Source: Candidatus Parcubacteria bacterium
Lineage (GTDB): Bacteria; Patescibacteriota; Minisyncoccia; Phycocordibacterales; UBA2100
Assembly (NCBI GenBank): GCA_043746305.1
Contig: JAYTRG010000023.1
Location: 1 to 29,384 of the forward strand
DNA: 29,384 nt
Direction of reading: 5' to 3'
A program made the translations under genes and the position numbers. Below, in pieces: positions 4,230-29,384 of this stretch. The first letter of the stretch is position 1. Each line of letters starts with the position of its first letter. The notes under the pieces were generated by a model. The model was not told the origin of the DNA. It made no database searches and was given only the letters and a program-made list of their open reading frames with translations.

Positions 4230-5924
<1,695 letters not shown>

Positions 5925-15830: not shown

Positions 15831-15859
15831 TTGAAATGTAACTAATCATAGCGTATTAT
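15831..15859 (+). promoter_or_regulatory. Sigma70 promoter of rpmH
   Basis: TTGAAA-N17-TATTAT, followed 6 nt later by the rpmH ATG. Confidence 0.65.
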
Positions 15860-15865
15860 ATGTGC

Positions 15866-16000
15866 ATGAAGAGAACGTATCAGCCAAAAAAACTGAAAAG
15901 GGTGCGTACGCACGGTTTTTTGGCGCGCACAGCAACTACGAGCGGTAAGGCGGTACTCGCTCGCCGACGCAGAAAAGGTCGGGCAAAGCTAGCCCTTTAG
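15866..16000 (+). CDS. rpmH: 50S ribosomal protein L34 (absent from the ORF track)
   Basis: Manual translation gives [44 protein letters not shown], at the canonical position between dnaA and rnpA. Confidence 0.97.
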
Positions 16001-16001
16001 A

Positions 16002-16319
16002 ATGCCAGCAGCGCACAGAATTGAAAGAAGCGCATTTCGCACAGCCTCTGCTCGAAGAGTGCATAGTACAAATATTTCGCTCTCAATAGCAAAAAACATA
16101 AATAATAAGCCATTATTTGGCTGTGTTGTATCAAAAAAAATTGCGGCAAGGGCAACGGATCGTAACGCGCTCAAGCGCCGCTGTCGCGAGGCCTTTCGGC
16201 CGGAACTCGCATGGATAGGCGCCTGGAGTATTGTTGTGTATCCAAAAAAAAACGCGCTTACAATTCCCTTTTCAGAATTTAAACACGAGGTCAAAGCTGT
16301 ACTTGCGCGTTGTTTTTAG
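16002..16319 (+). CDS. rnpA: Ribonuclease P protein component
   Basis: FGCVVSKKIAARATDRNALKRRCRE (RNR motif); follows rpmH. Confidence 0.9.
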   Translation: MPAAHRIERSAFRTASARRVHSTNISLSIAKNINNKPLFGCVVSKKIAARATDRNALKRRCREAFRPELAWIGAWSIVVYPKKNALTIPFSEFKHEVKAVLARCF

Positions 16320-16396
16320 ACGGGGGAACAGTCACCGCTGGCGAGTAATTGGCGCACCTTCTATGTCTTTTTTAGACCGCGGGTTACAATCTCGGA

Positions 16397-17125
16397 ATGT
16401 TTGGCGCTATTGTCGGATTTTTTCATACGGTAATTTACGTACCGCTCTATAATGCACTCATCTTTTTCATCGGGCATTTGCCTGGGCATGACGTGGGGTT
16501 TGCGGTAATTATCCTTACCATTATTGTCCGCATCATCCTCTACCCAGTCTCGAGACGCGCCGTGGAATCTCAGCTTGCCATGAAGAAGGTAGGGCCTGAG
16601 GTAGAGGAGCTTAAAAAGAAGTATAAAGACGATAAAACTAAGCAACATGAGGCTATTATGAAGCTCTATAAAGAGCGAAACGTCTCAATTTCGGCGGGGT
16701 TTTGGCTCTTATTGGTGCAAATTCCTATACTATTCTCGCTCTACTATATGTTTGCAAGAAGTGGATTGCCTCAGGTTGACTCTGCGATACTATATCCTTT
16801 TGTGCACGCTCCCGACGGTGTCAACATGCTGTTTTTGGGGTTTGTGAACATGGCGGCTCATCAAAACATTATTCTTGCTGCGCTTGTCGCCCTTTCTCAG
16901 TACCTCTACACCCGCCTTTCTATGGGTAAACGCCAGGACGACTCCCCTGTCGAGGCATCTCTATCAAAAGACATGGCTCGCAGTTTCGATTTGCAGGCTC
17001 GCTATATGATGCCGCTTATGTTTGGCGTGATAGCGTATATTCTTCCCGCAGCGGCACCCTTGTATTACCTTACGGCCAATGCCTTTATGATAGGTCAGGA
17101 ATTAGTGAGCGGCCGGCGCTTTTGA
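16397..17125 (+). CDS. yidC: Membrane protein insertase YidC (short form)
   Basis: GFAVIILTIIVRIILYP, MKLYKE and LLVQIPILFSLY; conserved gene position. Confidence 0.93.
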   Translation: MFGAIVGFFHTVIYVPLYNALIFFIGHLPGHDVGFAVIILTIIVRIILYPVSRRAVESQLAMKKVGPEVEELKKKYKDDKTKQHEAIMKLYKERNVSISAGFWLLLVQIPILFSLYYMFARSGLPQVDSAILYPFVHAPDGVNMLFLGFVNMAAHQNIILAALVALSQYLYTRLSMGKRQDDSPVEASLSKDMARSFDLQARYMMPLMFGVIAYILPAAAPLYYLTANAFMIGQELVSGRRF

Positions 17126-17155
17126 GAAAAGGAGATGGAGGAGTATAGTGCCTCC

Positions 17156-17626
17156 ATGAATGACATTCAACATATCATTGAAGATTTTCTCGTTTCTATG
17201 GGTTATCAAGCGTCCGTGTCGGTGACGGAAGTGGGGGGACAGACTATTTTCGCAATCGGAGGCGCCACAAATACACGCGACTTAATTGGTATGCATGGGG
17301 ACACTATCCATGCGATTGACCATTTGGTAAAAAAGATTGCAGAGAAGAAGCTTTTTTCGGCTCAAGATGAAGGTGGCAGGCAAGACACGCCGCTCTTTTT
17401 AGTTGACGTTGACGAATACCGAACGCGTCAGATTAAAGATTTGCAGCAAAAGGCAAAGATGATGGCTGAGCGAGCTCGTAGCTTTCAGTATGATGTTGAA
17501 CTTACGCCTATGAGCGCCTACGAGCGCCTCATCATCCATACGGTGCTTCAAAGTGAGCCAAATGTAACCACCGAATCTCAGGGAGAGGGACGCAATCGTC
17601 GCGTTGTAATCAAGTACGCCGCGTAA
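17156..17626 (+). CDS. jag: Jag/KhpB-like KH-R3H RNA-binding protein lacking the Jag N-terminal domain
   Basis: LIGMHGDTI (KH-like), MSAYERLIIH (R3H) and GEGRNRRVVI. Start is 17156, or alternatively 17135. Confidence 0.85.
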   Translation: MNDIQHIIEDFLVSMGYQASVSVTEVGGQTIFAIGGATNTRDLIGMHGDTIHAIDHLVKKIAEKKLFSAQDEGGRQDTPLFLVDVDEYRTRQIKDLQQKAKMMAERARSFQYDVELTPMSAYERLIIHTVLQSEPNVTTESQGEGRNRRVVIKYAA

Positions 17627-17634: not shown

Positions 17635-18078
17635 TTAAATTCCGGTTGGTGCGCAGGCAGCTGTGCCGTTGCCGGTGAAGTCTTGGAATATGCGAGAAAG
17701 GTCGAGGATGCAGGGGTTAATTTGATATAAAATCAACCAAACCCCAAAAAGGAGAAGAAGTCCAAGAATTACATTTTGAAGTATTTCTTTCGCTTGTTGT
17801 TTTTTGTCCCAAGCATCGCCGCCTTGATACAAAAAACCCGCCTGAACCAATTTTATTACTGCGAGAAACGCACCAATCGATATTGCGATGGTCATGAGGC
17901 CATTTAACGTGCCTCCAAAAGAGCCTGCTTGAGTATTCTGGTATAGATTTTGAATGGGTGATTTGTTGTAAATCGAGTTATCAAGCGGAACGAACGGCGT
18001 TGCCGTTGCCGCAAAAACTACGAGCGGCAGCGTATAGAGTAAGGTGCTTAGAGTGACAAAAAGATGCCGAAGCTTCAT
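17635..18078 (-). CDS. Pilin-like protein (VirB2/TrbC-like, CPR T4SS-pilin type)
   Basis: Signal peptide ending VFA, two hydrophobic helices around GFLYQGGDAWDKKQQAKEILQNVILG, and LILYQINP. Start at MKLRH (18078). Confidence 0.7.
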   Translation of the reverse strand: MKLRHLFVTLSTLLYTLPLVVFAATATPFVPLDNSIYNKSPIQNLYQNTQAGSFGGTLNGLMTIAISIGAFLAVIKLVQAGFLYQGGDAWDKKQQAKEILQNVILGLLLLFGVWLILYQINPCILDLSRIFQDFTGNGTAACAPTGI

Positions 18079-18085
18079 GTGTATA

Positions 18086-19315
18086 TTATTGCACGATACG
18101 AAGTACCCAGAGCGAGAGGTCATTTCCGTTTGTAAAGGCAAGATAATTGCCCGAAGGGTCTACCAATGGGTCATGTACATCAAATGGGATCGTGGGCGTA
18201 TACAAAACCTCTGTTGTGCCATCTTTAATGTTCACCTGCCACCACACGTCGTTGCTGTGGTAGACGCCCCGGTACCAGTCGTCAAGAAACCCGCTAGAGG
18301 GAATGGTTTGAGGCACGGCACAGTATGCGATCAGTGTTTTCCCCGGAGCCCAAGCGCATTTTTCCGCGATGGTTGAAAGTGGCAGCTTGATGGGTTGTCC
18401 CGTGCCTATTTTTGCGTACAGTGACACTTGTCCGCCGTCCGAGCCGCTGAAGAGTAGTGCGGAATTTGTGGAATTCGGAAGTATTTGCAAGCCGAGAACG
18501 GGACCAATTAGTAGTGAACGAGAGCCACTTTGTGATACGGCATACGCATACCCAGGAATCCCGTCGCTCGGACTTTCGAGTATGATAGGGGTGCCGCCCG
18601 CCAAAAAACTTCTCCAGCTCCCGATCGTGGATATAAACACTTGTTTAGGGTTTGCGCCTCGGAGCGTTGAGAGTACGCCCTCTGTCTTGTTTCCGGATGT
18701 TACGGTGTAGAAAATTTTGGGATTTTTTAAAGTTGCGTCAATCGCGATAGATCGAATATTGTTGGGAAGCAGCGGGCCGCTTAAGGCGCCGGGGAACGTA
18801 CTGGTACTTTCTGGTGTTGCAAAGACGCCAAGAAGCGTTGTTATCGTGTCGCTATCAATTGTACGCAATAGCACTATACCTGGGTTTTGCGAAAACAGCG
18901 CCTCGTACGTTTTTGGGACGAGAGTATTAGTGATCCTGAGTATTGTTTCATTCGCGGTGTCTGCGTCAAAGACGTTGCCACTCGCTCGCTCCACAAAGTA
19001 GAGGTTAGTGGTAGACGCTACGTTACTTGCAGTGAAAGCAAACCCAGCTACGGGGCCGAGTGAGGCTCGCCAGAGGCGTTTCTGGGCGTGAGGGGGATTT
19101 TGTTGCGAGCTTGTTGATGTGCTAACCGTGACGCTACTGGGGAGGGGGCCGCCAGAGACACTGGTAGTAAGGAGGGTTTGCACCGAACCTGAGGTTGTGT
19201 TCGGTGCACTGGCTCCGTGAGAGCGTTGGTACAGATAGTAGCTCGCTCCTCCACCAAGCGCCGCCATGGCGATAACCATGATTGCGTACTTCAATAGGCG
19301 AATCGTTTTCTCCAT
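18086..19315 (-). CDS. Membrane-anchored exported protein with a predicted beta-propeller
   Basis: N-terminal TM helix, Ser/Thr linker, then repeated short beta-strands (LYFVERASGNVF, EKCAWAPG, YLAFTNGNDLSLWVL). Start at MEKTI (19315). Confidence 0.7.
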   Translation of the reverse strand: MEKTIRLLKYAIMVIAMAALGGGASYYLYQRSHGASAPNTTSGSVQTLLTTSVSGGPLPSSVTVSTSTSSQQNPPHAQKRLWRASLGPVAGFAFTASNVASTTNLYFVERASGNVFDADTANETILRITNTLVPKTYEALFSQNPGIVLLRTIDSDTITTLLGVFATPESTSTFPGALSGPLLPNNIRSIAIDATLKNPKIFYTVTSGNKTEGVLSTLRGANPKQVFISTIGSWRSFLAGGTPIILESPSDGIPGYAYAVSQSGSRSLLIGPVLGLQILPNSTNSALLFSGSDGGQVSLYAKIGTGQPIKLPLSTIAEKCAWAPGKTLIAYCAVPQTIPSSGFLDDWYRGVYHSNDVWWQVNIKDGTTEVLYTPTIPFDVHDPLVDPSGNYLAFTNGNDLSLWVLRIVQ

Positions 19316-19319
19316 ATTA

Positions 19320-20375
19320 TTACTGCGAATGAAACGCGCTGGTTTGTGGCGCAGGGCTCGCGAGAGGTGAAGCAAAACTGTCTCCTGATTGTCCAAAGCT
19401 CATTGTCCATGCACCGTCAGCGCTGAGAAGTGGATCGATGGAAGATCTTAGATGAAGAGAGAAGTTTGTAGGGCCGGTGATACCATTCGCATTCATGGTA
19501 ATTTCGCTGCTTGAGGAAGCCGCTGATGCAACAAGCGAGCCGTTTACATACCAGACGTAATTAAGGCTTGGACTATCCGGGCTTTTGGCCGCAACAAAGT
19601 ATGGAATTGCGGCAAACGTGGCCTCGGTGTCTGGAAGACTGCCTCTGCTTTGGACTGCATTGTAATATTCAATACCAAAGAGCGGGTGATCAAGGTATAG
19701 CGTTACCCCTGGGTCGTGGGCGGGTACAACAATAGAGTTGCTTGCGACACTAGTGCCGTCTGCGGTGCTCACTTGAACCGAGATTGTACTTGCGCCAAAA
19801 AGGGGCGGCGGACCGAGGATAATGGTTGATTTCCCTATGCCGGAGAGCGAGCCTTGAACGTTCCCATCTTGCGTCCACGTATACACGAGCGTGTTCGCGG
19901 CCATTTCTCCGCTCGTTCCGATAAAGTGCGGGACTGCTTCCACGCGAATTGATGTCGCGGACGAAGCGAGCGAGCGTCCTTTGTAAAATGGCGGCGCATA
20001 CGAAGCTGCATCGTAGAGCAAGTCTACCGTTTGAGGCGTGAGTACAAGCGTTGCATTTGATTGTTGTCCGCTCGCTAAGATGATTGCTTCCACACTGGTG
20101 CTTTCCCCCGCGTTTCCGGTTGTGATAGTTATCTGCGTTTTTCCGACGCCTTCTTGCTGCGTTTGCCCATTTAGTGTCCATGTAATATCGGCGCTCGAGA
20201 GATTGAGTAGCGCACTGGTGACAGTGAGAGACACCTTCTGGTTCGGTCCTGGGTGAGCCGGGTTCGCGGTAATGGTTATGTCGGTGCCTGTGTTCGACAA
20301 ATAAAACTGGGCCGCTGCTGCAAACGGAATGAGAGCACATGCGGCGGCGATAATAACTGGCGCAAATCGCATCAT
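19320..20375 (-). CDS. Secreted beta-sandwich (Ig/PKD-like repeat) protein
   Basis: Signal peptide ending AAAA-Q, and three repeats of a W-x-x-[ND]G strand motif (ITWTLNG, YTWTQDG, YVWYVNG). Confidence 0.7.
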   Translation of the reverse strand: MMRFAPVIIAAACALIPFAAAAQFYLSNTGTDITITANPAHPGPNQKVSLTVTSALLNLSSADITWTLNGQTQQEGVGKTQITITTGNAGESTSVEAIILASGQQSNATLVLTPQTVDLLYDAASYAPPFYKGRSLASSATSIRVEAVPHFIGTSGEMAANTLVYTWTQDGNVQGSLSGIGKSTIILGPPPLFGASTISVQVSTADGTSVASNSIVVPAHDPGVTLYLDHPLFGIEYYNAVQSRGSLPDTEATFAAIPYFVAAKSPDSPSLNYVWYVNGSLVASAASSSSEITMNANGITGPTNFSLHLRSSIDPLLSADGAWTMSFGQSGDSFASPLASPAPQTSAFHSQ

Positions 20376-22369
20376 ACGATGGGAGCATTAATCTCCGGCG
20401 GAATAGGTTTTGCTAATATGCGGGGAAAGTCAGGCGTTTGCATCTCGAGGATTGCGGCCCGCCGTACGCTCTCAGGAATTACCGTGCTGACAGGCCCCGC
20501 TTTAGAAGTGATGCTTGGGTCGCGTGGAGCAAGAGGTACGGGTGGCGGGGCTTCTGCAAGAGCGAGATCGTCCTTTGCCTTCCGTGCGGCGAGAATTTGC
20601 GACGGGTCGGAAGTGATAATTTGATCTTCGGTATACGAGGCGATTACCTTGAGTGTCACGTGCTTGAGACCCGCAAAAAATATCCCCTCCCCGACATCAC
20701 TCTCCAGTAAGAGATATTTTTCCTCGTCCGAAAGTTTAAATGTTTGTTGCACTAAGTCGACCGAGGTAGGCGACTGGCGAAGAAGCAATTGTATTGAGGA
20801 GTTGGTAATCATCGGAACGCCGTAGGGAGAGTTTAGAAAGTCGGAGACGTCTTGCGTAATGGTGGAGACGCCGAGAAAATATTTTCGACCTCGCTTAATA
20901 ATACCAAATAGGAAGCTCGCAGTATCGTCGCTGCGCATCATCCACCATGCCTCGTCGATGACGAGGAGGCGCTTGCGAAGCTCTTTCCGCACCATGTTCC
21001 AAATATGGTGCGTAATAATATACATAGCAACCGGTTTAAGGTCGTCTTCCATATCGCGCACGGAAAATACAACCAGTTTTTTGTTCATGTCCACATTTGT
21101 GGGCCGGTTTATAAATCCGCTCCAGGTGCCCTTGGTGTATTTAGAAAGTCGCTGCACCAAGCTTCCCGAGCCTTCCATGCCCGAGAGCACCAGTTCAAAG
21201 TCAGAGAGGAGCGGCGGCTCTATGGCGGCAAAGTTAGAGTCCGTGGTGATGTCCTTGAGTGCGTACGTTTCGGTAATAGCTTTGTCAATGACCGCGTCCT
21301 CCTCTGGGGTGAGACCCCCCAGCATAATGCGGAAAAGCCCGACAAGCGCGATGATGTTGTTTCGCAAAATATCCGCGGGATTTTCGTCTTCGCGCGGCAC
21401 TGGAAGGTCAAAGGGGTTTATGTGGTGTTCGGAGGAAAGTGAAATGTTGAAGTACCTGCCGCCCACTGTTTCCGCAAGAAATTCATACTCGCGCTCCGGG
21501 TCGATGACTATAACTTCCACGTCGAACATGAGGGAGCGCAATATTTCGAGCTTGGTGGTATAGCTTTTGCCGCTTCCCGATTTGGCAAAGGTTACAGAAT
21601 TGTAGTTCTCGAGCGAGAATCGGTCGAAGAGAATGAGCGAGGAGTTGTGGCGGTTGATGCCGTAGAGAATTCCGCGGTCACTCGTGAGGTCGAACGAAAT
21701 AAATGGGAAAATTGACGAAAGCGGGGCGGAATTGAGCTTAGTGTGCACTTCGAGTTCATCGTTGGCGAGCGGTAATATAGAGCGGAACCCCTGCTCTTGT
21801 TGGAAGAGCGCCGGTCGTATATACACGAGGCGGCTTTCGAGTGCGCTGCGTACTTCAGTTTCAGTTTTGTCTAATTCTTCCCGCGTGGTTCCGTAGATGG
21901 TGAGATAGAGTCCCACGTCGAACACGCGCTCTTGCGCTTGCTGCAATGAATCACGCAAGTGCTCGAGGTCGGAGTAGGCAGTATCGAGCTGCGGGTCGCG
22001 TACCATGCCTTTTTGTTCGCGAGTGGAAATTTGGCTTTGCACCTCGGCAACTTTTTTCTGGAATTTACGCAGCATCTCATTGGTGTCCAAGGGGTGGATG
22101 AATAGTGAAATGTCGAGCACTTTGTCCATGTTGATAATCGGCGCAAACCAGCCGGTGGTTAGAAACCGAGGATACGATATGACAAAGAATGTGCGCGCTA
22201 TTTTCTCGCCGAGATCGAGTTCTTTCGAGTTGATTTTGAGTGCATGCGGGGCGATTACATCTTGCAGATCGAGAACCCCGGCGCGATAGATTTCGTTCGG
22301 TAAAACCGGAAGCACCTCGGCGTTTTTGTCATCTTTTTTGCCAAATGGTAGGTAGTCTAAGAGAGACAT
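20372..22369 (-). CDS. VirB4/TraE-like type IV secretion ATPase
   Basis: Walker A AKSGSGKS, IVIDPEREY, Walker B LVIDEAW, GRKY...ITQ and NSSIQLLLRQ; Pro-rich C-terminal tail. Confidence 0.88.
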   Translation of the reverse strand: MSLLDYLPFGKKDDKNAEVLPVLPNEIYRAGVLDLQDVIAPHALKINSKELDLGEKIARTFFVISYPRFLTTGWFAPIINMDKVLDISLFIHPLDTNEMLRKFQKKVAEVQSQISTREQKGMVRDPQLDTAYSDLEHLRDSLQQAQERVFDVGLYLTIYGTTREELDKTETEVRSALESRLVYIRPALFQQEQGFRSILPLANDELEVHTKLNSAPLSSIFPFISFDLTSDRGILYGINRHNSSLILFDRFSLENYNSVTFAKSGSGKSYTTKLEILRSLMFDVEVIVIDPEREYEFLAETVGGRYFNISLSSEHHINPFDLPVPREDENPADILRNNIIALVGLFRIMLGGLTPEEDAVIDKAITETYALKDITTDSNFAAIEPPLLSDFELVLSGMEGSGSLVQRLSKYTKGTWSGFINRPTNVDMNKKLVVFSVRDMEDDLKPVAMYIITHHIWNMVRKELRKRLLVIDEAWWMMRSDDTASFLFGIIKRGRKYFLGVSTITQDVSDFLNSPYGVPMITNSSIQLLLRQSPTSVDLVQQTFKLSDEEKYLLLESDVGEGIFFAGLKHVTLKVIASYTEDQIITSDPSQILAARKAKDDLALAEAPPPVPLAPRDPSITSKAGPVSTVIPESVRRAAILEMQTPDFPRILAKPIPPEINAPIV

Positions 22370-22444
22370 GTACTTAGTGTATAGCTATGAGCGGTTAGCG
22401 ACTAGTGGAAAAACTGCGTGTATGTGAAAAGAAAAACCGCGTCT

Positions 22445-23104
22445 CTAATATTGGTTGCTGAGTGGCATCGGCTTACCCTCTTCTCCAGGGTTGAACATTT
22501 TGTACAGAAGCTCGATAACTTCTTCGGTGCCGAGCTGCACGGTGCGCACGCCTGTCCGTATGAGCCCTTGTTGCACTATGGAGACGCGCTGCTCGAGCTG
22601 GCTCACGGCCTCCTCAAAACTGGTGTCATTCACGCCCTCGTCTTTTGCTTTGCCAAACGGTAAAAAAGAACGTACGGGATTTTTGCCCTTTGACATAAGG
22701 GGTGCAGAAAACGGCACGACAACAAAAAAGTTTTTTGTCATTATGCTTGCTGCTTCGGTAAAACTTTTAACAAACTCTATGTACTCGCGGATTTGGATAC
22801 GCATCAAGTCGTTGAGCTGCTCCTTGTAAGCGACCTCAAGCGTGGCAATGTAAGGACGGATGTCGAGCATGCGCGATTGAATGAGAATTTGGGTCGTAAA
22901 GTCGAGCGAGTTGAGGTAATTTTGGAATTGTACGATGAAAGCGGTCTGTTCGTCCTCGCTTTTAAGCGCAAAGTTGATACTTGAGGCCAAGAGAATCGCG
23001 CGCATTGAGCCGTCTTTCAGCATCACGACACCGTCGCGCACCTCCGAAATAGGCACAAAGTCCTGTGTCGAGCGCGAATTTTTTGCTTGGGACGCTTGGG
23101 GCAT
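22445..23104 (-). CDS. VirB4-associated cytoplasmic protein (TrsD/TraC-like, resembling a separately encoded VirB4 N-terminal region)
   Basis: STQDFVPISEVRDGVVMLKDGS, SSINFALKSEDEQ, IQILIQSR-like segment and KNFFVVVP; lies between the PrgI-like gene and the ATPase. Confidence 0.55.
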   Translation of the reverse strand: MPQASQAKNSRSTQDFVPISEVRDGVVMLKDGSMRAILLASSINFALKSEDEQTAFIVQFQNYLNSLDFTTQILIQSRMLDIRPYIATLEVAYKEQLNDLMRIQIREYIEFVKSFTEAASIMTKNFFVVVPFSAPLMSKGKNPVRSFLPFGKAKDEGVNDTSFEEAVSQLEQRVSIVQQGLIRTGVRTVQLGTEEVIELLYKMFNPGEEGKPMPLSNQY

Positions 23105-23166
23105 ACGTTAGAGAAAATGTCTGTGCATGATTATTGTAACGTACAATTTTTAGATGAGCTGAATTG

Positions 23167-23661
23167 CTATCGGCGGGGCGCCATATTGCGCATGGTGGTA
23201 ATGGGTGCAATTACTCCCCCGCCCTGCGCCCGCTCGTCTTCGGATGCAAACCCGCCTGCGATACGTTCTTTAATATCGAGCGACCATGCAAGCTCGTGCA
23301 AACGGCTATCGGATAGCTTGGGAATATATACCTCCGACTTTGCGGGAGCAATTTGCGTTTTTGCGGCTGCTTTTATGCGTTTGCGCTCGTTGTTCCATAA
23401 ATAAAGCTTTGGGTGGAGTACAAAATAAAATCCATGTTCAATTGCGATAATAAACGGACGGCCATTGTATTCGAGAAACGCAAGTGCGGCCGCAAGACCT
23501 ACCGTGCCAGCAATTAAGGGGAGCGCAAGATAGATGGGCAGTATGCGATAGAGTATGTACGACGTACCTGCTCCCCCGCCCATAAACACGAACTGCTTAA
23601 AGGTAAACGGCCCAAAAATCTTGTCCTCAACCTCGATGAACTGCGGAATTTGGAATTGCAT
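23167..23661 (-). CDS. PrgI family (VirB3-like) membrane protein
   Basis: MQFQIPQFIEVEDKIFGPFTFKQF, followed by two TM helices and a YNGRPF motif. Confidence 0.8.
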   Translation of the reverse strand: MQFQIPQFIEVEDKIFGPFTFKQFVFMGGGAGTSYILYRILPIYLALPLIAGTVGLAAALAFLEYNGRPFIIAIEHGFYFVLHPKLYLWNNERKRIKAAAKTQIAPAKSEVYIPKLSDSRLHELAWSLDIKERIAGGFASEDERAQGGGVIAPITTMRNMAPRR

Positions 23662-23681
23662 TGTGTTGTAAGTATAACGCG

Positions 23682-24188
23682 TTAGGCGATTTGTTCTCGA
23701 TAGGGATCGCTCTCGCCGCTCTTTCGCTCATGGCTAGGCTGATTTGAAACGTACTCTTCTGAAAGTGGTGTGCGAATAGCTTTTCCCTCTGGCGGTGGTG
23801 GCGGCGGAGTCCCTGGCGGCACAGGCGCAGTGTTCTGCACCTGTGCGCCCAACGATTCTGCAGTGTTGTGCACAAGCTCAAGGCGGATGGGAGCAAAGAC
23901 AATGCGCGACACATCATCGGCAAGCGCTATTGCCACCTCGTGTTCTACTCCTACCTGTTTTTCTATGTTTGCCGCTAACTGCTCTATAGGCTGCATGCCA
24001 AGTAAGGCAAACATAACTTCGTTTTCGAGCATGGCCCACTGGTCAAAATGGAGCTGGTGCTTTGCTGAGAGTTCGCGCATGTGCGCCTCAACATCGGCCG
24101 AGAGAATAGCATCTTGCACAACCTTAGGAAGCTGCGCAAATCGCGCGGCGAGCTGTGACTGTATATCAATATTTGTGTCTGAACTCAT
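23682..24188 (-). CDS. Hypothetical helical protein with a Pro-rich linker and DPYRE C-terminus
   Basis: 168-aa ORF tightly packed in the cluster; LPKVVQDAI...HQLHFDQ...LLG; no signal peptide. Confidence 0.7.
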   Translation of the reverse strand: MSSDTNIDIQSQLAARFAQLPKVVQDAILSADVEAHMRELSAKHQLHFDQWAMLENEVMFALLGMQPIEQLAANIEKQVGVEHEVAIALADDVSRIVFAPIRLELVHNTAESLGAQVQNTAPVPPGTPPPPPPEGKAIRTPLSEEYVSNQPSHERKSGESDPYREQIA

Positions 24189-24192
24189 AGAA

Positions 24193-26793
24193 TTATGGAA
24201 TTTTATTCCCTGTATTACCAGATGTGCCGCCGAGATCTACCGGTTTGAATGTTGCATTAACGCTTTGATTGCTGGGAGGAGCTGGTGCTTGGAATGGGAC
24301 ATTGGCATCTTTGGGTGCAGAATTAGAGCGTTCGTTTACGTTGTCTGGATTTTGCAGAGCGTTAGATGATTGAAGGTTCAGCACCGCGTTGCGGATGTTC
24401 AAAGTAACTCTTTCTTGCCCTTGCAGATTTGCTTGCTGTTTTCTAAACGCATCAACGAGTTCGCCAAAGTTCGCCGAAGGTGTGTTTGCAATTATGTTGG
24501 CGGGCTGCGCTGCGTTTGGTATTTGAGGAGAAACAGGCACGTCAATTGCAATTTTTAACTGAGCTATTTTTTCTTTGGCTTTTAGAATACCGGGATCTTT
24601 CGACTCCCATTCCATGGCCTTGGCATGCGCCTCGTCTATGCGGTGGCGCGCGGCGCTCATTTCTGAGGAAGATGATGCTATTCGCTTTTCAACCGCAGTT
24701 ACTTGATCTTTGCTCAGACCGCTACCGCCCATTGTAGCTTGAATAATCTCCTTAATTTCATCATTGTTCATTGCCCGTCCTGCGCTTGCTGCGGCATCTG
24801 TATGTGGTTCAAGCGCGTCGCGGAGCGATTGCGGATTTATCTGCACTGGCTTTCCCGCCTCGTCTGACGCGTGTTTTTCGAGTATTGTGGCCATCTGCTG
24901 GATACCTTGCTGGAAACTTTGTTGTGTCTCTGCGTACCCAGCATTCTTGGAAGCCAATTGCTCTTTCGCCGCGTTCAGTTCCTTATGCGACTCTTTCAGC
25001 GAAAGCCCACTTTGCGTAGAAGCAGCCGCAGTAGATGTCGTTGCTGAACCGCCTCCAAAGACTTCGCGCTGAATCGCGCCACCTATTTTTTGTTCGAGAC
25101 CTGCATTGGGCAATATCGCGCCTCTCGCGATATTGGCGCGATTGCTAAAGTACCTGCCCTGCGCGCCCAAGCGTTCTGCGCCACCCTGCGCAGTGTTCGC
25201 CTCTTTCGTATACCCAGCTTTGCGCAAGTCATCTGCTTGGCTTGCCGCTTTGTCACTTGCGCTAAAGTTCCCTCGCGCCTTCACCTCATTACGCGCAGCG
25301 CTCGACTCCGCCATATTGGATCGTAAGCGAAGTGCCAAGGGGTTTCCTGTAGCCACTGCCACTCCCACTCGCCCAGCCGCCATTGCGGCCGAGGCAATGG
25401 AACCAAGCGCCCCCGAGCCCGGCATGGAGGAGGCGATTTTGGAAGCGATTTTAAACGAGGCGAACAGGAGGCCGGAGATGACGATAAAGTTGAATATCGA
25501 GCCCCATGCGCCAGAGAACGCGGAGCCCGGAGTTAAAGCTGGGGAGGCCGCCAAGGTTGGGTCGAAAAATGCGCTTAAAGCAATTTGGCCGCGTTGCGGT
25601 GAAATGGCATTTGTAAGCCTGAGGGACACAAGCAGAAATAGCATGAGGAGCGGAGCAAAAATAGCGGCATTTAAGAGCGCTTTCCACCATGCGCTGAAGC
25701 CAAATTTACCGCCAGAAAGTTGCGGAACCAGGAACGTGGCAAATGCGCCTGCTGAGGTAAACATCAGCACAAGAAATAAAATTCCTCGGACGATAATTAA
25801 GTAACTCCCATAGAGAAGAATGACAGCAATCCACGTGAGCATCATTCCGCCAAACAAACCATAAAATAAACCAGTCCATCCGCTGCCGCTTGCATCTGCG
25901 ACGTTGGCCGTGAGACTGCCAACATGCCATATGCTCGTGATGCCCATTGGGGCAAGAAAGGCACTGGCGATATCAAATTTTGTCTGGCCGGTCGTGGGGT
26001 CGGTAGAGGTAATTTTTGGATCGGCCGCCGCAGCGTAAAACTGATATGCGGTAAAGTTTGAAAAATCAATAACCATTTTGGTAAAGAGCAGACTAAAATT
26101 GAGCAACACCGCTATAATGAGCACATTGGCTATAAGGCGCTTTTGCCCAAATTCGCGGAGGCCCAAAATAAGACTGATGGAAATAAATACGAATGAGCCA
26201 ATAATCACAATATTTGCAAGATCACGAAATACGGTCCAACCGAGGGTGATTGCGCTTGAGATGGGTGTGCCGGCTCCAACCCACGATCCAAAGCCAATGA
26301 CAACGTTCCAAATCAAGAGATCAAATATATAGCCGGCGAGTCTCAAAAAAGCCGCACCAAGAAAGAGGAATAACGAACCTATTGCAGCAAGGAGCGGTCT
26401 CCAAATACAAGCACTAAAATCAAATGTCACAAATGCCAAAACACCGCAACTGCCAGACGAGTTAAGTGGGTGATCAGTTGCTGTCGTGTTCCCTTGTTGG
26501 TCATTCATTATTTGTATTGAGCCAAGGCGACTTGGTACTATTGATGCACCGCCCCCGGTTTGTGTAGTTCCATCGGCATTCACAAATGTGATGAGAGTCC
26601 CTCCGTTACCGTCCGAATATGAACATGCGTACGACGCATTCTCGTGCCCTGTCCAACTAACAGAGTTGCTGCCTTGGAGAGTCAATGTTCCTCCAGATGG
26701 ACATGACGCAGCATTAGCCTGATTTGTAGAGGGAACAAAAATAAAACCTAGTGCGAGAGCAAAAAAAGAGATGCTTATCAGTGCATTTTTCAT
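24193..26793 (-). CDS. VirB6/TrbL-like polytopic membrane protein with a long C-terminal soluble region
   Basis: Signal-like N-terminus, about 7-8 hydrophobic segments, GWTVFRDLANI and LLNFSLLFTKMVIDFSN. Start at MKNAL (26793), 2 nt after the upstream TGA. Confidence 0.7.
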   Translation of the reverse strand: MKNALISISFFALALGFIFVPSTNQANAASCPSGGTLTLQGSNSVSWTGHENASYACSYSDGNGGTLITFVNADGTTQTGGGASIVPSRLGSIQIMNDQQGNTTATDHPLNSSGSCGVLAFVTFDFSACIWRPLLAAIGSLFLFLGAAFLRLAGYIFDLLIWNVVIGFGSWVGAGTPISSAITLGWTVFRDLANIVIIGSFVFISISLILGLREFGQKRLIANVLIIAVLLNFSLLFTKMVIDFSNFTAYQFYAAAADPKITSTDPTTGQTKFDIASAFLAPMGITSIWHVGSLTANVADASGSGWTGLFYGLFGGMMLTWIAVILLYGSYLIIVRGILFLVLMFTSAGAFATFLVPQLSGGKFGFSAWWKALLNAAIFAPLLMLFLLVSLRLTNAISPQRGQIALSAFFDPTLAASPALTPGSAFSGAWGSIFNFIVISGLLFASFKIASKIASSMPGSGALGSIASAAMAAGRVGVAVATGNPLALRLRSNMAESSAARNEVKARGNFSASDKAASQADDLRKAGYTKEANTAQGGAERLGAQGRYFSNRANIARGAILPNAGLEQKIGGAIQREVFGGGSATTSTAAASTQSGLSLKESHKELNAAKEQLASKNAGYAETQQSFQQGIQQMATILEKHASDEAGKPVQINPQSLRDALEPHTDAAASAGRAMNNDEIKEIIQATMGGSGLSKDQVTAVEKRIASSSSEMSAARHRIDEAHAKAMEWESKDPGILKAKEKIAQLKIAIDVPVSPQIPNAAQPANIIANTPSANFGELVDAFRKQQANLQGQERVTLNIRNAVLNLQSSNALQNPDNVNERSNSAPKDANVPFQAPAPPSNQSVNATFKPVDLGGTSGNTGNKIP

Positions 26794-26795
26794 AC

Positions 26796-28517
26796 TCAAT
26801 GTGTCCAAGCGCTCGTCCAGTTGGTAAGAGTTTGCTGCTGCGCGGCCGAAGGAGTGCTTCCAGAGGAAGTCGGCACATTGCACCAGCCTGCGCCTGAAGA
26901 GGGGTCACCATTCCAGCCTATCGTTCCTTTGCCCCCGTTTGTATCGTTGCCTGCCCAGCCCTGAATGGTGGTAAGCACGACGCCTGTTTGCTGCCCGGCA
27001 ATTGCAGCCTGCACCTGGGTGAGTTCGTCTTGTGCCTGAGTGATGTTTGCCTGCACATGAAGAACGGGCGGGTTGGCATTGATGATGGTGTTGAGTTGCG
27101 AAAGGCCTAGGTTTTGTTTTGCTGAGTCAGCGCTTTGGAGCTCCGCGGCGAGGATGTTGAGTGTGGCAAGGTTTTGGTTTGAGACGTCGATGCGGCTTGC
27201 GAGTGCTTGTGCGAGCGCGGCAAAGTTGGAAGAAGTAATGACCGCGCTAGAAAAGGCGGTGGAGGTGGCTATGGTGAGCGTTGCGCCGCTCTTGCTGGTG
27301 CATTGCGCACCTCCGCTCGGGGTAGAAGTAACCGCGCCTGTGCATACATTTTGCGTTATGAGCGTCCAGCAGGTGCTCTCGGCTCCGCGCAGTTGCACAA
27401 TGGCGCTGCTTATCGTACTCGCCATCTGCTGCTGCAAGCCGTTGTACTGCTGCTCCCATTTGATGATTTGGTACAGATTGGTAAGACCGGTGCTTATAGC
27501 GCTGCTGGCAAGTGAATTTTGCTGCTGTTGCACGGCATTGCCTATGTACTGTTGCACGCCCGCGACCGAGGAGGGGCCAGAGAGGAGGTACGAGCCAATA
27601 CCAGTAAAGAATTGTCCCACCATTTGTCCTATGTCGTTTGCGTTTTCGAGCTGCCTAAAGCCGGATGTCATAGCTTGAGTTGCCACGGCATTGAGGAGTA
27701 TGCCGGGCACCACCACATTGCCGTTAGTATCTTGGGCGTCGTAAATTCCATTGTTCCAGTTGAGCCTGTTGAGCCATTCGCTCTCTGCGGCACCAATGTT
27801 GTTGTTCACTTGATTTTGCGCAATAGCGTATGCCTGATAGGGGTTACATGCTGGATACTGCACGAATGCGCCGAGCGCGCCGAGCACATCGGTAGTTTGG
27901 CCGTCGAGAGCGCTTTCTAGATTTGCATAGGGGCAGGCGAGTGCGTCTTGCGGAGCACGCGTGGTGGCGTAGTAATTTCGCAAAACCGCGGTCTGTACTT
28001 GTGATTGAAAAGCAGGGTTTATTGTCTGAAAAAGTCCGCTATTTACGGTGTTATTTACTGCTGTGTCTGCCACTTTTTGTTGGTCGTTGCCATAATTAAC
28101 CACCCAGTACGGATTTCCATTGCGGCCGCTTGAAAGTTGGCTGTACTCCTGTTGCACGTAGGCAACCGTCACCGCCTGTTTTTGCTGGTTTGCGAGTTCC
28201 TGCAGGACGCACGTTTTATAGGTGAGAGTTCCCGTGTTGAGCTCGACTGCAGAATCTGATACGGGAACGTACGTACCGCCAAGGGCGGAAGCGGATGCAA
28301 TGGAAGACGCTCCCGGTGCAGAACAGCTAAAGATGCCTCCGTTCCCTGGGGTTGAGGTTACCTGGGATGCTGGCGCGTTTGAGGCAAGTGTGCATGGAGT
28401 CATTGACCCGTCTGTTGAAAATCCAGCGCTTGAACAGGTTTGTGCCCGCGCGTGAAAAGGAAAAACTGCGTACAGAGAAAAGGCAAGGAGAATTGGTATG
28501 TAGCGGCGCGTATTCAT
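26796..28517 (-). CDS. Secreted Cys-containing, Gln/Asn/Ser/Thr-rich protein of unknown function
   Basis: Signal peptide ending HARA-Q, 10 Cys residues and helical Gln-rich segments; 573 aa. Confidence 0.75.
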   Translation of the reverse strand: MNTRRYIPILLAFSLYAVFPFHARAQTCSSAGFSTDGSMTPCTLASNAPASQVTSTPGNGGIFSCSAPGASSIASASALGGTYVPVSDSAVELNTGTLTYKTCVLQELANQQKQAVTVAYVQQEYSQLSSGRNGNPYWVVNYGNDQQKVADTAVNNTVNSGLFQTINPAFQSQVQTAVLRNYYATTRAPQDALACPYANLESALDGQTTDVLGALGAFVQYPACNPYQAYAIAQNQVNNNIGAAESEWLNRLNWNNGIYDAQDTNGNVVVPGILLNAVATQAMTSGFRQLENANDIGQMVGQFFTGIGSYLLSGPSSVAGVQQYIGNAVQQQQNSLASSAISTGLTNLYQIIKWEQQYNGLQQQMASTISSAIVQLRGAESTCWTLITQNVCTGAVTSTPSGGAQCTSKSGATLTIATSTAFSSAVITSSNFAALAQALASRIDVSNQNLATLNILAAELQSADSAKQNLGLSQLNTIINANPPVLHVQANITQAQDELTQVQAAIAGQQTGVVLTTIQGWAGNDTNGGKGTIGWNGDPSSGAGWCNVPTSSGSTPSAAQQQTLTNWTSAWTH

Positions 28518-29335
28518 GATTGTTTGTGATGAGCATAGTAGAGCGCGAGTGAATTGAAGGAGGAAACCATCGCGCCTTCGGCGTCATTGTATGAGCGCAA
28601 AAGCGTCACTGTTGTTATCGGGTCGTTCGCGTTGTCTACGAGCGCCTGAAGCGTGGAGCTAAACTGCCCCATGGCGTTTAAAATGGCAAGGTGATATGGA
28701 ACTGCATCTTGCGGCACTTGTACGGCGGCGGCGGCGGCGGTCGAGGAGTTGTAGGTAGTGATAATGGAATTCAATTGATTAAGATAGACAGGATTTTTGT
28801 TCGCGGAATATTTTGCAAACACCGCGATTTCCAAATCTTTTATACCTATCATGGGTGCAAGCGCTTGTTTGAGTGCAGCGCGGTATGCGAGCATGCCAGC
28901 GTATGATGTGTCGCTCGAAGTATGAAGGTTTGATACCGTGTATTGTTTGTACGGAACGAGAACCGATACGGCTCTGGCAAGCTGTTGGGCGGCTTGCCCT
29001 GCCGCCTCTGGTGAATAGGTGCCGCTGGCCTTCATCTGCTGGTATTGCTGCACGAGTTGGCCAACAATTTCTGGCCCTACTTGTGCAATGTCGCTTGTGG
29101 CGATGGCGGCACTTTCTGTTACGGGAGAGATGTTCGCAATGTTGCCACTACCTACCTGCGCCGTGATCGCGCTTTGCGGAACACTTACATATTCTTGGCG
29201 TGAGGCATTCACTATTCCATAAAAGATAACAGCGAGGAGTATTGCAACGCAAACTGAGGCGGTTGCGAGCAAAGGAATCGAAAGGGCACGCTGGTGTACA
29301 CCAGAAAAACCGCTGCTTGTGTCGCGCGTTTCCAC
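28514..29335 (-). CDS. Single-TM anchored helical protein of unknown function
   Basis: Hydrophobic helix at about residues 20-42 followed by an amphipathic helical domain; its stop overlaps the next gene's start (ATGA). Confidence 0.75.
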   Translation of the reverse strand: METRDTSSGFSGVHQRALSIPLLATASVCVAILLAVIFYGIVNASRQEYVSVPQSAITAQVGSGNIANISPVTESAAIATSDIAQVGPEIVGQLVQQYQQMKASGTYSPEAAGQAAQQLARAVSVLVPYKQYTVSNLHTSSDTSYAGMLAYRAALKQALAPMIGIKDLEIAVFAKYSANKNPVYLNQLNSIITTYNSSTAAAAAVQVPQDAVPYHLAILNAMGQFSSTLQALVDNANDPITTVTLLRSYNDAEGAMVSSFNSLALYYAHHKQS

Positions 29336-29384
29336 AAACGTATTGTAGCACCGTTACAAAGTGGAAAAATCGTTCACGTGCTCG

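What the first reader, a model, noticed from the sequence alone, without database searches (positions are those of the whole stretch)
17635..29335. Chromosomal T4SS-like cluster beside the origin with no mobility genes
Ten co-directional genes, mostly with gaps under 21 nt or overlaps (largest 75 nt), encode pilin-like, VirB4-like, PrgI-like and VirB6-like proteins. No relaxase, VirD4 coupling protein, integrase or att-like repeat is visible, and the cluster abuts the core jag gene. T4SS-like loci related to monoderm conjugation machinery are known in Patescibacteria, so the core is not new, but its function is unresolved. Host attachment, DNA uptake or effector delivery are plausible alternatives to conjugation.
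Basis: partly seen in the sequence, partly recalled or inferred. Interest (0 to 1): 0.7.

Follow-up and report, generated by a model that had tools for sequence, protein, structure and literature searches.

The report
Known Patescibacteria chromosomal type IV secretion operon
This is the relaxase-free type IV secretion and pilus gene cluster that ultra-small Paceibacteria (Patescibacteria/CPR) keep fixed in their chromosome next to the replication origin; it is real and probably vital to them, but papers from 2023 and 2025 already describe it, so the finding is a correct rediscovery.

Summary
Ten tightly packed minus-strand genes (17635-29335) encode a split VirB4 ATPase (a TrsD-like N part plus a CD1110-type C part), PrgI/VirB3, an extended VirB6/TrbL protein, a VirB2-like pilin and five lineage-specific proteins, four of them exported or membrane-anchored. 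The cluster converges on jag, 8 nt from its stop.

It is not an ICE. The cluster and its place beside jag-yidC-rnpA | dnaA-dnaN recur in most of 80 related species. VirB4 was found in 292 of 301 sampled genomes of the class and is more conserved than DnaA. Beyond the right edge (a contig end) lie a paralogous membrane protein, a small secreted protein and ksgA. No relaxase was found in this genome or in 100 high-quality relatives. The only tyrosine recombinase is Xer-type. There are no att-like repeats and no tRNA.

One correction: two soluble VirD4-like ATPases exist elsewhere in the genome, and they are core genes of the class.

All of this (FATA-like origin, missing relaxase, pilin, position beside dnaA) is published (PMC12102498), as is essentiality in a Saccharibacterium (PMC10633639). 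This scan has already noted the same system in at least 483 other genomes.

The cargo is still unknown. I favour uptake of host macromolecules (about 45%) over effector export (about 30%).

The parts
28514..29335 (-). First cluster gene in the window: a 273-aa single-pass membrane protein (one TM segment at residues 20-38) with an extracytoplasmic domain. No family is assigned. Relatives and contig C51 carry a paralogue just upstream.
   Evidence: ORF. TM segment from the hydropathy scan. tblastn found orthologues in 23 of 80 loci. No Pfam, NCBIfam or PDB-profile match. Upstream paralogues of 293-312 aa in L004 and L008 and on C51.
29342..29350 (-). Extended -10-like promoter element (TGnTACAAT) ending 6 nt before the GTG start of the 273-aa gene. 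This is a consensus match only.
   Evidence: Upstream sequence read. Not tested further. Relatives have one more cluster gene upstream on the same strand, so this need not be the only promoter.
26796..28517 (-). Secreted 573-aa protein with a signal peptide, mostly long alpha-helices plus a small beta insert. Function unknown.
   Evidence: AlphaFold2 mean pLDDT 67, above 84 for residues 340-520. No Foldseek PDB match at E<=0.001. No Pfam or PDB-profile match. The nearest ESM Atlas clusters are all unnamed Minisyncoccota proteins.
24193..26793 (-). Extended VirB6/TrbL-family polytopic membrane protein, 866 aa from the ATG at 26793. It has a signal/TM segment, about six TM segments within residues 134-454, and a hydrophilic, coiled-coil-like C-terminal part of about 400 aa.
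   Evidence: 8 of 45 orthologues match Pfam TrbL PF04610, best E 6.5e-7. ESM Atlas feature neighbours carry TrbL_3, TrbL_4 or TrbL. TM scan. The window protein has no HMM hit of its own, and its family profile finds no solved VirB6.
23682..24188 (-). Small soluble 168-aa protein: a conserved N-terminal domain of about 105 aa, a Pro-rich linker and an invariant C-terminal D-P-Y-R-E motif. Function unknown, presumably cytoplasmic.
   Evidence: Orthologues in 50 of 80 loci. Invariant columns in alignment A6. No TM segment. No Pfam or PDB match.
23167..23661 (-). PrgI/VirB3-like small membrane protein, which anchors VirB4 to the membrane in known systems.
   Evidence: PF12666 PrgI, 38.2 bits against a cut-off of 27. 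Hydrophobic stretch at residues 36-63. Present in 77 of 80 related loci at 40-67% identity.
22445..23104 (-). TrsD-like protein, the separately encoded N-terminal domain of VirB4.
   Evidence: It aligns to the N-terminal 100-230 positions of the VirB4 models NF045975 (E 5.9e-11), NF045971 and TIGR00929, and to TrsD NF041427 (E 4.4e-7). All are below the curated cut-offs. It is a separate ORF in 78 of 80 relatives, median identity 60%.
20372..22369 (-). VirB4 ATPase, C-terminal motor part (665 aa), with Walker A GSGKS at 21563-21577 and Walker B VIDEAW at 20945-20962.
   Evidence: NF045971 'VirB4-like conjugal transfer ATPase, CD1110 family', 365.8 bits against a cut-off of 325; PF19044, 85 bits. 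Motifs located. Found in 292 of 301 class genomes. 74-91% identical in 80 species.
19320..20375 (-). Secreted 351-aa protein made of three tandem Ig-like repeats, with invariant Trp residues at 66, 167 and 275.
   Evidence: Signal peptide. Invariant columns spaced about 100-108 residues apart. The family profile matches an Ig-like domain of phage T4 Hoc, E 4e-4. Present in 78 of 80 loci. The fold itself was not predicted here.
18086..19315 (-). Membrane-anchored 409-aa protein (from the ATG at 19315): an N-terminal TM helix, a Ser/Thr-rich disordered stalk and an extracytoplasmic seven-bladed beta-propeller.
   Evidence: AlphaFold2 mean pLDDT 89.3, pTM 0.79. Foldseek gives 846 PDB matches at E<=0.001, all generic propellers (WD40 type, Lp49, lyases), so no specific function follows. 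Present in 69 of 80 loci.
17635..18078 (-). VirB2/TrbC-like T4SS pilin, 147 aa from the ATG at 18078: a signal peptide, two hydrophobic helices, an invariant I-N-P motif and a short tail containing Cys.
   Evidence: PF18895, 24.8 bits (cut-off 26.6) for the window protein. 24 of 26 orthologues match PF18895 (best E 2.4e-10) and 4 match TrbC PF04956. Alignment A3. TM scan.
13015..17626 (.). Core chromosomal context: dnaN 13015-14115 (-), dnaA 14329-15675 (-), rpmH 15866-16000 (+), rnpA 16002-16319 (+), yidC 16397-17125 (+), jag 17135-17626 (+). The cumulative GC-skew minimum is at about 13-14 kb, and DnaA-box-like sites lie at 14162-14324 and 15758.
   Evidence: The same neighbours in the same order and orientation flank the cluster in most of the 80 related loci.

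Best explanation
The locus is the Paceibacteria form of the chromosomal 'Patescibacteria-clade' type IV secretion system. This machine descends from monoderm (MPF-FATA type) conjugation systems. It has lost its link to a relaxase and to mobility, and is inherited vertically as a core gene set beside oriC. I put that identity at about 0.95.

Shown by sequence: the cluster has a membrane translocon made of VirB4 (split into a TrsD-like N part and a motor part with intact Walker motifs), PrgI/VirB3 and an extended VirB6. It also has a VirB2-like pilin, which ordinary Gram-positive systems lack. Five conserved lineage-specific proteins complete it: a single-pass membrane protein, a secreted helical protein, a small soluble protein, a secreted triple-Ig protein and a membrane-tethered beta-propeller.

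Inferred: VirB4 energises assembly of a pilus or channel that reaches a host cell. The exported Ig, propeller and helical proteins would form or decorate the extracellular part, standing in for the missing VirB8, VirB1 and adhesin subunits.

Most likely use, inferred and unproven: moving host-derived macromolecules, above all nucleic acids, into the epibiont. I give this about 0.45. Effector export into the host is the main alternative. The confidence of 0.5 below refers to the whole statement, including the direction of transport.
For: Identity:
- VirB4 passes the CD1110 (FATA-type) equivalog cut-off, and PrgI passes Pfam's.
- VirB6 and pilin membership hold at the level of the orthologue families.

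Fixed and vertical:
- VirB4 is 74-91% identical in 80 species, and the whole cluster sits in the same order next to jag/yidC/rnpA | dnaA/dnaN (yidC on 65 and dnaA on 58 of the 80 loci).
- VirB4 was found in 292 of 301 evenly drawn class genomes (272 of 278 high-quality ones, 216 of 221 genera), mostly as a single copy.
- In the same even sample VirB4 is 57-76% identical to the window's copy, against 37-52% for DnaA.
- On 55 loci the mean pairwise distance is 0.195 for VirB4, 0.40 for DnaA and 0.56 for DnaN. VirB4 distances track DnaA distances (Spearman 0.73) as well as housekeeping genes track each other (0.61-0.72).

Not conjugative:
- Five relaxase Pfams are absent from this genome, and four of them are absent from 100 of 100 high-quality class genomes.
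- The only tyrosine recombinase is Xer-type, among housekeeping genes.
- The right flank carries ksgA.

Function, from the literature:
- The homologous cluster is essential for epibiotic growth of Southlakia epibionticum, whereas comEC is dispensable (PMC10633639; PMC12857230).
- Import of DNA or other host macromolecules has been proposed (PMC12102498; PMC11665869).
- A cultivated Microgenomatia parasite takes up host RNA and shows tubular structures that may be T4SS pili (bioRxiv 10.64898/2026.06.21.733656).
Against: - Nothing in the sequence shows the direction of transport or the cargo.
- All functional evidence comes from other classes (Saccharimonadia, Microgenomatia). No Paceibacteria has been tested.
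- This genome has ComEC and a PilB-type ATPase, so a separate DNA-uptake route exists.
- It also keeps purD, so its dependence on imported nucleotides is not established.
- Two T4CP-like ATPases are universal in the class. They could couple substrates for export. The Southlakia homologue is reported as non-essential.
- No VirB8-like or VirB1-like subunit was recognised, so the proposed roles of the accessory proteins are guesses.
- The genome is only 77% complete.
Confidence: 0.5

Rival explanations
1. The same machine works outward: it injects proteins (effectors, toxins or hydrolases) into or onto the host cell to open it up or reprogramme it, as the bacteria-killing Xanthomonas T4SS or the Streptococcus suis 89K system do.
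For: Wang et al. 2023 suggest that the Southlakia system 'may instead export proteins' because they recognised no relaxase or coupling protein. Export is the usual direction for T4SSs. Two VirD4-like ATPases, the usual substrate receptors, are core genes of the class.
Against: No candidate effector or immunity gene is recognisable in or next to the cluster. The T4CP-like genes are unlinked, lack the N-terminal membrane anchor, and the Southlakia homologue is reported non-essential while the T4SS is essential.
Confidence: 0.3
2. The system is mainly a pilus-assembly machine. The VirB2-like filament and the exported Ig and propeller proteins serve attachment to the host, with no substrate passing through the channel.
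For: A pilin is present and conserved. Four of the five unassigned proteins are exported or surface-tethered with adhesin-like folds: Ig repeats and a beta-propeller on a Ser/Thr stalk.
Against: These bacteria already have type IV pili for adhesion, with a PilB-type ATPase at 4041-5924 (PMC12857230). VirB6 is a channel component and is retained, with a large extra domain. VirB4 being more conserved than DnaA fits a central physiological role better than it fits one adhesin among several.
Confidence: 0.1
3. It is a relaxase-independent DNA exchange system between cells of the same lineage, like the Ced import system of Sulfolobales or mycobacterial distributive transfer, serving recombination and repair in tiny genomes.
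For: VirB4 gives partial matches to the archaeal DNA-import ATPases CedB (E 1.6e-10) and CedD. The locus sits among replication and repair genes (dnaA, dnaN, ruvABC, polA). In class ABY1, T4SS loci co-occur with comF, recG and radA.
Against: The CedB and CedD matches cover only the shared P-loop core and lie far below the cut-offs. Essentiality for growth on a host in Southlakia is not expected of a recombination aid.
Confidence: 0.08
4. It is an integrative conjugative element, or the decayed remnant of one, whose relaxase, coupling protein and integrase lie beyond the contig end.
For: The cluster runs into a contig end. The genes are of conjugation ancestry. The MAG is 77% complete.
Against: The same cluster sits at the same chromosomal site in most of 80 species and in 97% of the sampled class. 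The right flank holds a paralogous membrane protein, a small secreted protein and ksgA in relatives and on this genome's C51. No relaxase was found, no mobile-element integrase, and no att-like repeats or tRNA. G+C content is like the rest of the genome. All ten genes are intact, and VirB4 is under stronger constraint than DnaA.
Confidence: 0.02

Closest known systems
Patescibacteria-clade T4SS, Paceibacteria arrangement (Quinonero-Coronel et al. 2025, Microb Genom, PMC12102498)
   Same: It has the same component set: VirB4, TrsD, PrgI/VirB3, VirB6 and a VirB2-like pilin of PF18895. It also lacks a relaxase, has T4CP homologues encoded far from virB4, and has the same neighbours (dnaA, dnaN, rnpA, rpmH, ksgA).
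   Different: Nothing essential differs. This work adds several points for this lineage: the five conserved unassigned genes (with a 7-bladed propeller, three Ig-like repeats and a helical secreted protein), VirB4 more conserved than DnaA, two soluble T4CP-like paralogues in 100 of 100 genomes, and transcription of the operon towards the origin.
T4SS of Southlakia epibionticum ML1 (SEML1_0006-0019; Wang et al. 2023, Cell, PMC10633639)
   Same: It is a Gram-positive-like T4SS with pilin genes inside the cluster and no recognisable relaxase. It is the only member of this clade tested genetically, and it is essential for epibiotic growth.
   Different: It belongs to a different class (Saccharimonadia). 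It has an array of six divergent pilins where this locus has one, and peptidase and lysozyme genes downstream of virB4 where this locus has an Ig-repeat and a propeller gene. Essentiality in Paceibacteria is untested.
MPF-FATA conjugation systems of monoderms (pCF10 Prg/Pcf, pIP501 Tra, pGO1 Trs, CTn2 of C. difficile)
   Same: The VirB4 is of CD1110 type, the TrsD-like N-domain is a separate gene as in pGO1 and pIP501, and PrgI/VirB3 and a VirB6-family protein are present.
   Different: This locus has no relaxase or oriT, no linked membrane-anchored T4CP, and no recognisable VirB1-type hydrolase, VirB8-like protein or PrgB-type adhesin. It has a VirB2-like pilin, which those systems lack. It is chromosomal, universal in its class and immobile.
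ComB DNA-uptake T4SS of Helicobacter pylori, and the Ced system of Sulfolobales
   Same: Both are precedents for VirB4-driven machines that import DNA without a relaxase. This is a resemblance in how the system may work, not a claim of membership.
   Different: ComB is a diderm VirB2-10-type system. Ced is archaeal and has different membrane parts. Only the ATPase core is shared. No functional evidence exists for this locus.

Membership tests
Patescibacteria-clade chromosomal T4SS (PMC12102498) | VirB4 ATPase of the MPF-FATA-related type | tested here: met
   NF045971 (CD1110 family), 365.8 bits against a cut-off of 325; Walker A and B intact.
Patescibacteria-clade chromosomal T4SS (PMC12102498) | VirB4 falls in the monophyletic Patescibacteria clade of the VirB4 tree | not tested
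   No tree with outgroup MPF classes was built. Indirect support only: 57-91% identity to single-copy orthologues across the class.
Patescibacteria-clade chromosomal T4SS (PMC12102498) | Separate TrsD-like protein (VirB4 N-domain) next to virB4 | tested here: met
   22445-23104 aligns to the N-terminal part of the VirB4 models (E 5.9e-11) and to TrsD (E 4.4e-7), below the curated cut-offs. It is a separate ORF in 78 of 80 relatives.
Patescibacteria-clade chromosomal T4SS (PMC12102498) | PrgI/VirB3 homologue near virB4 | tested here: met
   PF12666, 38.2 bits against a cut-off of 27.
Patescibacteria-clade chromosomal T4SS (PMC12102498) | VirB6/TrbL-family polytopic membrane protein near virB4 | tested here: met
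   Met through orthologues: 8 of 45 hit PF04610, best E 6.5e-7, and the Atlas neighbours carry TrbL_3/4. The window protein alone gives no hit.
Patescibacteria-clade chromosomal T4SS (PMC12102498) | VirB2-like pilin (PF18895/PF04956) near virB4 | tested here: met
   The window protein scores 24.8 bits against a cut-off of 26.6. 24 of 26 orthologues hit PF18895 and 4 hit TrbC.
Patescibacteria-clade chromosomal T4SS (PMC12102498) | No relaxase associated with the system | tested here: met
   PF03432, PF01076, PF02486, PF03389 and PF08751 were not found in this genome, which is 77% complete. The first four are 0 of 100 in high-quality class genomes. The MOBC, MOBM and MOBH families were not searched.
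Patescibacteria-clade chromosomal T4SS (PMC12102498) | Chromosomal position beside dnaA/dnaN/rnpA/rpmH/ksgA (Paceibacteria arrangement) | tested here: met
   Window gene order; the same order in most of 80 loci; ksgA on the far side.
Patescibacteria-clade chromosomal T4SS (PMC12102498) | Required for host-dependent growth | not testable with these tools
   Shown only for S. epibionticum. No RNA data exist for this organism.
Integrative conjugative element (ICE) | Relaxase and oriT | tested here: not met
   No relaxase of five Pfam families in the genome. oriT was not searched for.
Integrative conjugative element (ICE) | Integrase and flanking att repeats, often at a tRNA gene | tested here: not met
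   The only Phage_integrase-family gene is Xer-type, on C45 between a HAD phosphatase gene and xth. No direct repeats beyond chance 16-19-mers and no tRNA in the window. The right end of the cluster lies beyond the contig, so that flank could be judged only through relatives and C51.
Integrative conjugative element (ICE) | Linked, membrane-anchored VirD4-type coupling protein | tested here: not met
   Two T4CP-like ATPases pass Pfam cut-offs (TrwB_AAD_bind 34 bits, T4SS-DNA_transf 31 bits, TraG-D_C 25 and 28.5 bits). They lie on other contigs among housekeeping genes and show no N-terminal TM segment.
Integrative conjugative element (ICE) | Patchy distribution and variable insertion sites among relatives | tested here: not met
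   Found in 292 of 301 class genomes, at the same locus in most of 80 species; VirB4 distances track DnaA distances.
MPF-FATA conjugative T4SS of monoderms | VirB1-type cell-wall hydrolase and VirB8-like (NTF2-fold) subunit in the cluster | tested here: inconclusive
   None of the five unassigned proteins matches such families by Pfam, NCBIfam or PDB profile. Two were folded and are a helical protein and a propeller. The 273-aa, 168-aa and 351-aa proteins were not folded.
MPF-FATA conjugative T4SS of monoderms | No VirB2-type pilin (adhesin-mediated contact instead) | tested here: not met
   A VirB2-like pilin gene ends the cluster. This is the known departure of the Patescibacteria systems.

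The most novel reading that the evidence does not exclude
The five conserved, unassigned genes (single-pass 273-aa protein and its upstream paralogue, secreted helical 573-aa protein, small soluble 168-aa protein, triple-Ig protein, stalked 7-bladed propeller) may be true structural subunits. Together with a VirB2-like pilus they would give Paceibacteria an architecturally new, monoderm, pilus-bearing T4SS subclass. Its motor is held under tighter constraint than DnaA because it would be the main feeding channel, importing host nucleic acids. The evidence here does not exclude this, but it shows only conservation and predicted folds.
Probability: 0.3. Interest if true: 0.65.

Novelty: already known. 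Interest (0 to 1): 0.22.

Why it matters
The system itself matters. It is near-universal in a huge uncultured bacterial radiation, it is essential in the one species tested, and its cargo is unknown. It is the leading candidate for how these genome-reduced epibionts draw macromolecules from their hosts.

This window adds no new kind of thing, however. It is a typical Paceibacteria copy of a published system.

Modest additions from this work:
- VirB4 is about twice as conserved as DnaA across the class.
- Two soluble VirD4-like ATPases are core genes.
- A fixed set of exported Ig, propeller and helical partners gives concrete targets for structural and genetic work.

Tried and rejected
- ICE reading: rejected (see rivals).
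- Search for RNA evidence: no RNA holder listed. Only two DNA (sediment metagenome) runs of one study hold the stretch, and they may be its source.
- Laying those runs: one 11,024-nt public contig covers the window's end and continues 4,158 nt beyond it, but its letters cannot be read here.
- Joining C51 to C23: there is no sequence overlap between the contig ends, so the join rests on synteny only.
- VirB6 family profile against solved structures: only coiled-coil noise from the C-terminal part, and no VirB6 or TrwI match.
- 573-aa protein: Pfam, PDB profile, ESM Atlas and Foldseek all uninformative. The pdb_via_wide library was not available.
- 168-aa and 273-aa proteins: no PDB-profile match.
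- Promoter and terminator scan of the cluster: counts no higher than in shuffles, so nothing can be read from it.
- DnaA-box count in the whole window: not above chance (8 against 4.8 expected). The origin call therefore rests on gene order and GC skew.
- Not done: a VirB4 tree with outgroups, searches for MOBC/MOBM/MOBH relaxases, and a genome-wide search for VirB1-like hydrolases.

Full report
**What is there.** The window is one whole contig (C23, 29,384 bp) of a 568-kb, 80-contig metagenome-assembled genome. The genome is estimated 77% complete with 0.7% contamination. Related contigs are labelled Candidatus Kaiserbacteria, Parcubacteria or Paceibacterota.

Ten minus-strand ORFs fill 17635-29335. 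With the most plausible starts (ATG at 26793, 19315 and 18078 instead of the longest GTG/TTG extensions) the junctions are 4-nt overlaps or gaps of 2-20 nt. Two gaps are larger: 62 nt and 75 nt, on either side of the TrsD-like gene. The last gene's stop (17635) lies 8 nt from the stop of the convergent jag gene (17626).

To the left lie yidC, rnpA, rpmH (15866-16000), dnaA and dnaN. Cumulative GC skew reaches its minimum at about 13-14 kb. The description 'beside the origin' is therefore sound.

**Identity of the genes.**
- 20372-22369 passes NCBIfam's equivalog cut-off for the CD1110 family of VirB4-like conjugal ATPases (365.8 against 325 bits), aligning to model positions 185-732. It has intact Walker A (GSGKS) and Walker B (VIDEAW) motifs.
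- The missing N-terminal part is the neighbouring 219-aa gene. It aligns to the first 100-230 positions of several VirB4 models and to TrsD. VirB4 is thus split, as in pGO1 and pIP501.
- 23167-23661 is a PrgI/VirB3 protein (38.2 against 27 bits).
- The 866-aa polytopic protein has no hit of its own. However, 8 of 45 orthologues match Pfam TrbL/VirB6 (best E 6.5e-7), and its language-model neighbours carry TrbL_3/TrbL_4. It is an 'extended VirB6' with a hydrophilic tail of about 400 aa.
- The pilin scores 24.8 bits against PF18895 (cut-off 26.6). 24 of 26 orthologues match that family and 4 match TrbC/VirB2. The alignment shows the expected signal peptide, a two-helix hairpin and an invariant INP motif.

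**The five unassigned genes.** All are conserved across the class.
- The 409-aa protein folds with high confidence (pLDDT 89, pTM 0.79) into a TM helix, a disordered Ser/Thr stalk and a seven-bladed beta-propeller. Its structural matches are generic.
- The 351-aa secreted protein has three repeats marked by invariant Trp residues about 100-108 residues apart. One repeat matches an Ig-like domain of phage T4 Hoc (E 4e-4).
- The 573-aa secreted protein is predicted to be mostly long helices (pLDDT 67) and has no match in the PDB.
- The 273-aa single-pass membrane protein and the 168-aa soluble protein (invariant C-terminal DPYRE) match nothing.
- No VirB8-like or VirB1-like subunit was recognised.

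**Is it mobile?** No.
1. VirB4 relatives at 74-91% identity occur in at least 579 stretches of the species-level genome collection. In the 80 best loci the whole cluster recurs in the same order. Its flanks are jag, yidC and rnpA on the opposite strand, then dnaA and dnaN (yidC on 65 and dnaA on 58 of the 80 loci; many of the rest are cut by contig ends).
2. In an evenly drawn sample of the class, VirB4 was found in 292 of 301 genomes, 272 of 278 high-quality ones and 216 of 221 genera, nearly always once.
3. VirB4 is more conserved than the replication initiator. It is 57-76% identical to the window's copy, against 37-52% for DnaA in the same kind of sample. On 55 shared loci the mean pairwise distances are 0.195 (VirB4), 0.40 (DnaA), 0.56 (DnaN) and 0.57 (YidC). 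VirB4 distances correlate with DnaA distances (Spearman 0.73) as well as housekeeping genes correlate with each other. The 80 loci were chosen by VirB4 similarity, which inflates the first comparison. The even class sample does not have that bias.
4. In relatives the next genes are a 293-312-aa paralogue of the 273-aa protein, a small secreted protein on the other strand, ksgA and a UvrD-like helicase. In this genome the 2.3-kb contig C51 carries exactly ksgA, the small protein and the start of the paralogue, running off its end. The two contig ends do not overlap, so the join is inferred from synteny. A public-run contig does continue 4.2 kb past the window's end.
5. Five relaxase Pfams are absent from this genome, and four of them are absent from 100 of 100 high-quality class genomes. 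The only tyrosine recombinase is Xer-type, among housekeeping genes. There are no att-like repeats and no tRNA, and G+C content is unremarkable.

**A correction.** The genome does encode VirD4-like ATPases. One is at C3:172-2091 (639 aa; TrwB_AAD_bind, T4SS-DNA_transf and TraG-D_C all above Pfam cut-offs). The other is at C5:3362-6202 (946 aa; TraG-D_C), a paralogue 41% identical to the first. Neither has an N-terminal membrane segment. Both sit among housekeeping genes. Relatives of them occur in 100 of 100 high-quality class genomes, usually as two copies.

**What is known.** Quinonero-Coronel et al. 2025 (PMC12102498) surveyed thousands of Patescibacteria genomes. They describe:
- a monophyletic VirB4 clade related to MPF-FATA;
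- TrsD, PrgI/VirB3, VirB6 and VirB2-like pilins near virB4;
- T4CP homologues, mostly far from virB4;
- relaxases in only 103 genomes;
- for Paceibacteria, virB4 next to dnaA, dnaN, rnpA, rpmH and ksgA.

Wang et al. 2023 (PMC10633639) showed by Tn-seq that the homologous cluster of Southlakia epibionticum, pilins included, is essential for epibiotic growth. According to later accounts comEC is dispensable and the T4CP homologue was not essential. A 2025 review lists these systems as a new T4SS group (PMC12857230). This scan has already noted the same system in at least 483 other genomes, with the same verdict. The finding is therefore a correct rediscovery.

**How it most likely works.**

Shown: the locus encodes a complete inner translocon (VirB4 with TrsD, VirB3 and VirB6) and a pilin. 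It is vertically inherited under strong constraint, and it has no conjugative processing genes.

Inferred: VirB4 drives assembly of a pilus or channel across the monoderm envelope towards a host cell. The exported Ig, propeller and helical proteins would build or decorate the outer part.

The direction of transport and the cargo cannot be read from the sequence. My estimates are:
- import of host macromolecules, above all nucleic acids: about 0.45;
- effector export: about 0.30;
- adhesion only: about 0.10;
- Ced-like DNA exchange: about 0.08;
- conjugation or ICE: about 0.02.

The case for import rests on essentiality in Southlakia despite a dispensable ComEC, the non-essential T4CP there, the published import proposals, and a 2026 preprint showing host-RNA uptake and possible T4SS pili in a cultivated Microgenomatia parasite.

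Against import: this genome has ComEC and purD, and all the functional data come from other classes.

**Side observation.** Judged by GC skew, the operon is transcribed towards the origin, that is, head-on to replication. This orientation is the same in all related loci. That sits a little awkwardly with the published idea that the origin-proximal position serves high expression through gene dosage. I did not test this further.

Noticed in passing
window 17635-29335 relative to the skew minimum at about 13-14 kb: The whole T4SS operon lies on the lagging strand. It is transcribed towards oriC and converges on jag with 8 nt between the stops. The same relative orientation holds in all related loci. 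This is unusual for a strongly conserved, presumably much-used operon, and it fits poorly with a simple gene-dosage explanation for its position.
   Followed up: partly
G000 C3:172-2091 (L085) and C5:3362-6202 (L084): Two VirD4/TraD-like ATPases without an N-terminal membrane anchor, 41% identical to each other, sit among housekeeping genes: an LTD-PKD surface protein gene and an epimerase gene beside one, purD and ndk beside the other. Relatives occur in 100 of 100 high-quality class genomes, usually in two size classes (about 600 aa and about 820 aa). Their role is unknown.
   Followed up: partly
L032:485-1744 (contig JBBTSH010000006.1): In one related genome a T4CP-like gene lies only about 1.5 kb upstream of PrgI, on the opposite strand, where the VirB6-like and 168-aa genes normally sit. 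This is either a rare linkage of T4CP and virB4 or a rearrangement or misassembly.
   Followed up: no
window 29342-29350, and upstream of the starts at 23661, 24188 and 18078: -10-like hexamers lie a few nt before several start codons in the cluster; TGnTACAAT ends 6 nt before the GTG of the 273-aa gene.
   Followed up: no
window 4041-5924 (+); G000 C1:26345-27151: A PilB/T2SSE-type ATPase with an MshEN domain (type IV pilus motor) lies in the window, and ComEC lies elsewhere in the genome. A separate pilus and competence route therefore coexists with the T4SS.
   Followed up: partly
G000 C51:1-2342 and window 29384: The assembly breaks inside the gene upstream of the cluster, leaving an estimated gap of about 140 nt between C51 and C23. 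A public-run contig of 11,024 nt spans this end and runs 4,158 nt beyond it, so the break is an artefact of this assembly.
   Followed up: partly
L004:1227-1538 (-), L008:1424-1765 (-), G000 C51:1202-1441 (-): A small (103-113 aa) secreted protein with a conserved FPFGGQ motif is always encoded between ksgA and the first T4SS-cluster gene, on the opposite strand. It has no assigned function and may belong to the system.
   Followed up: no
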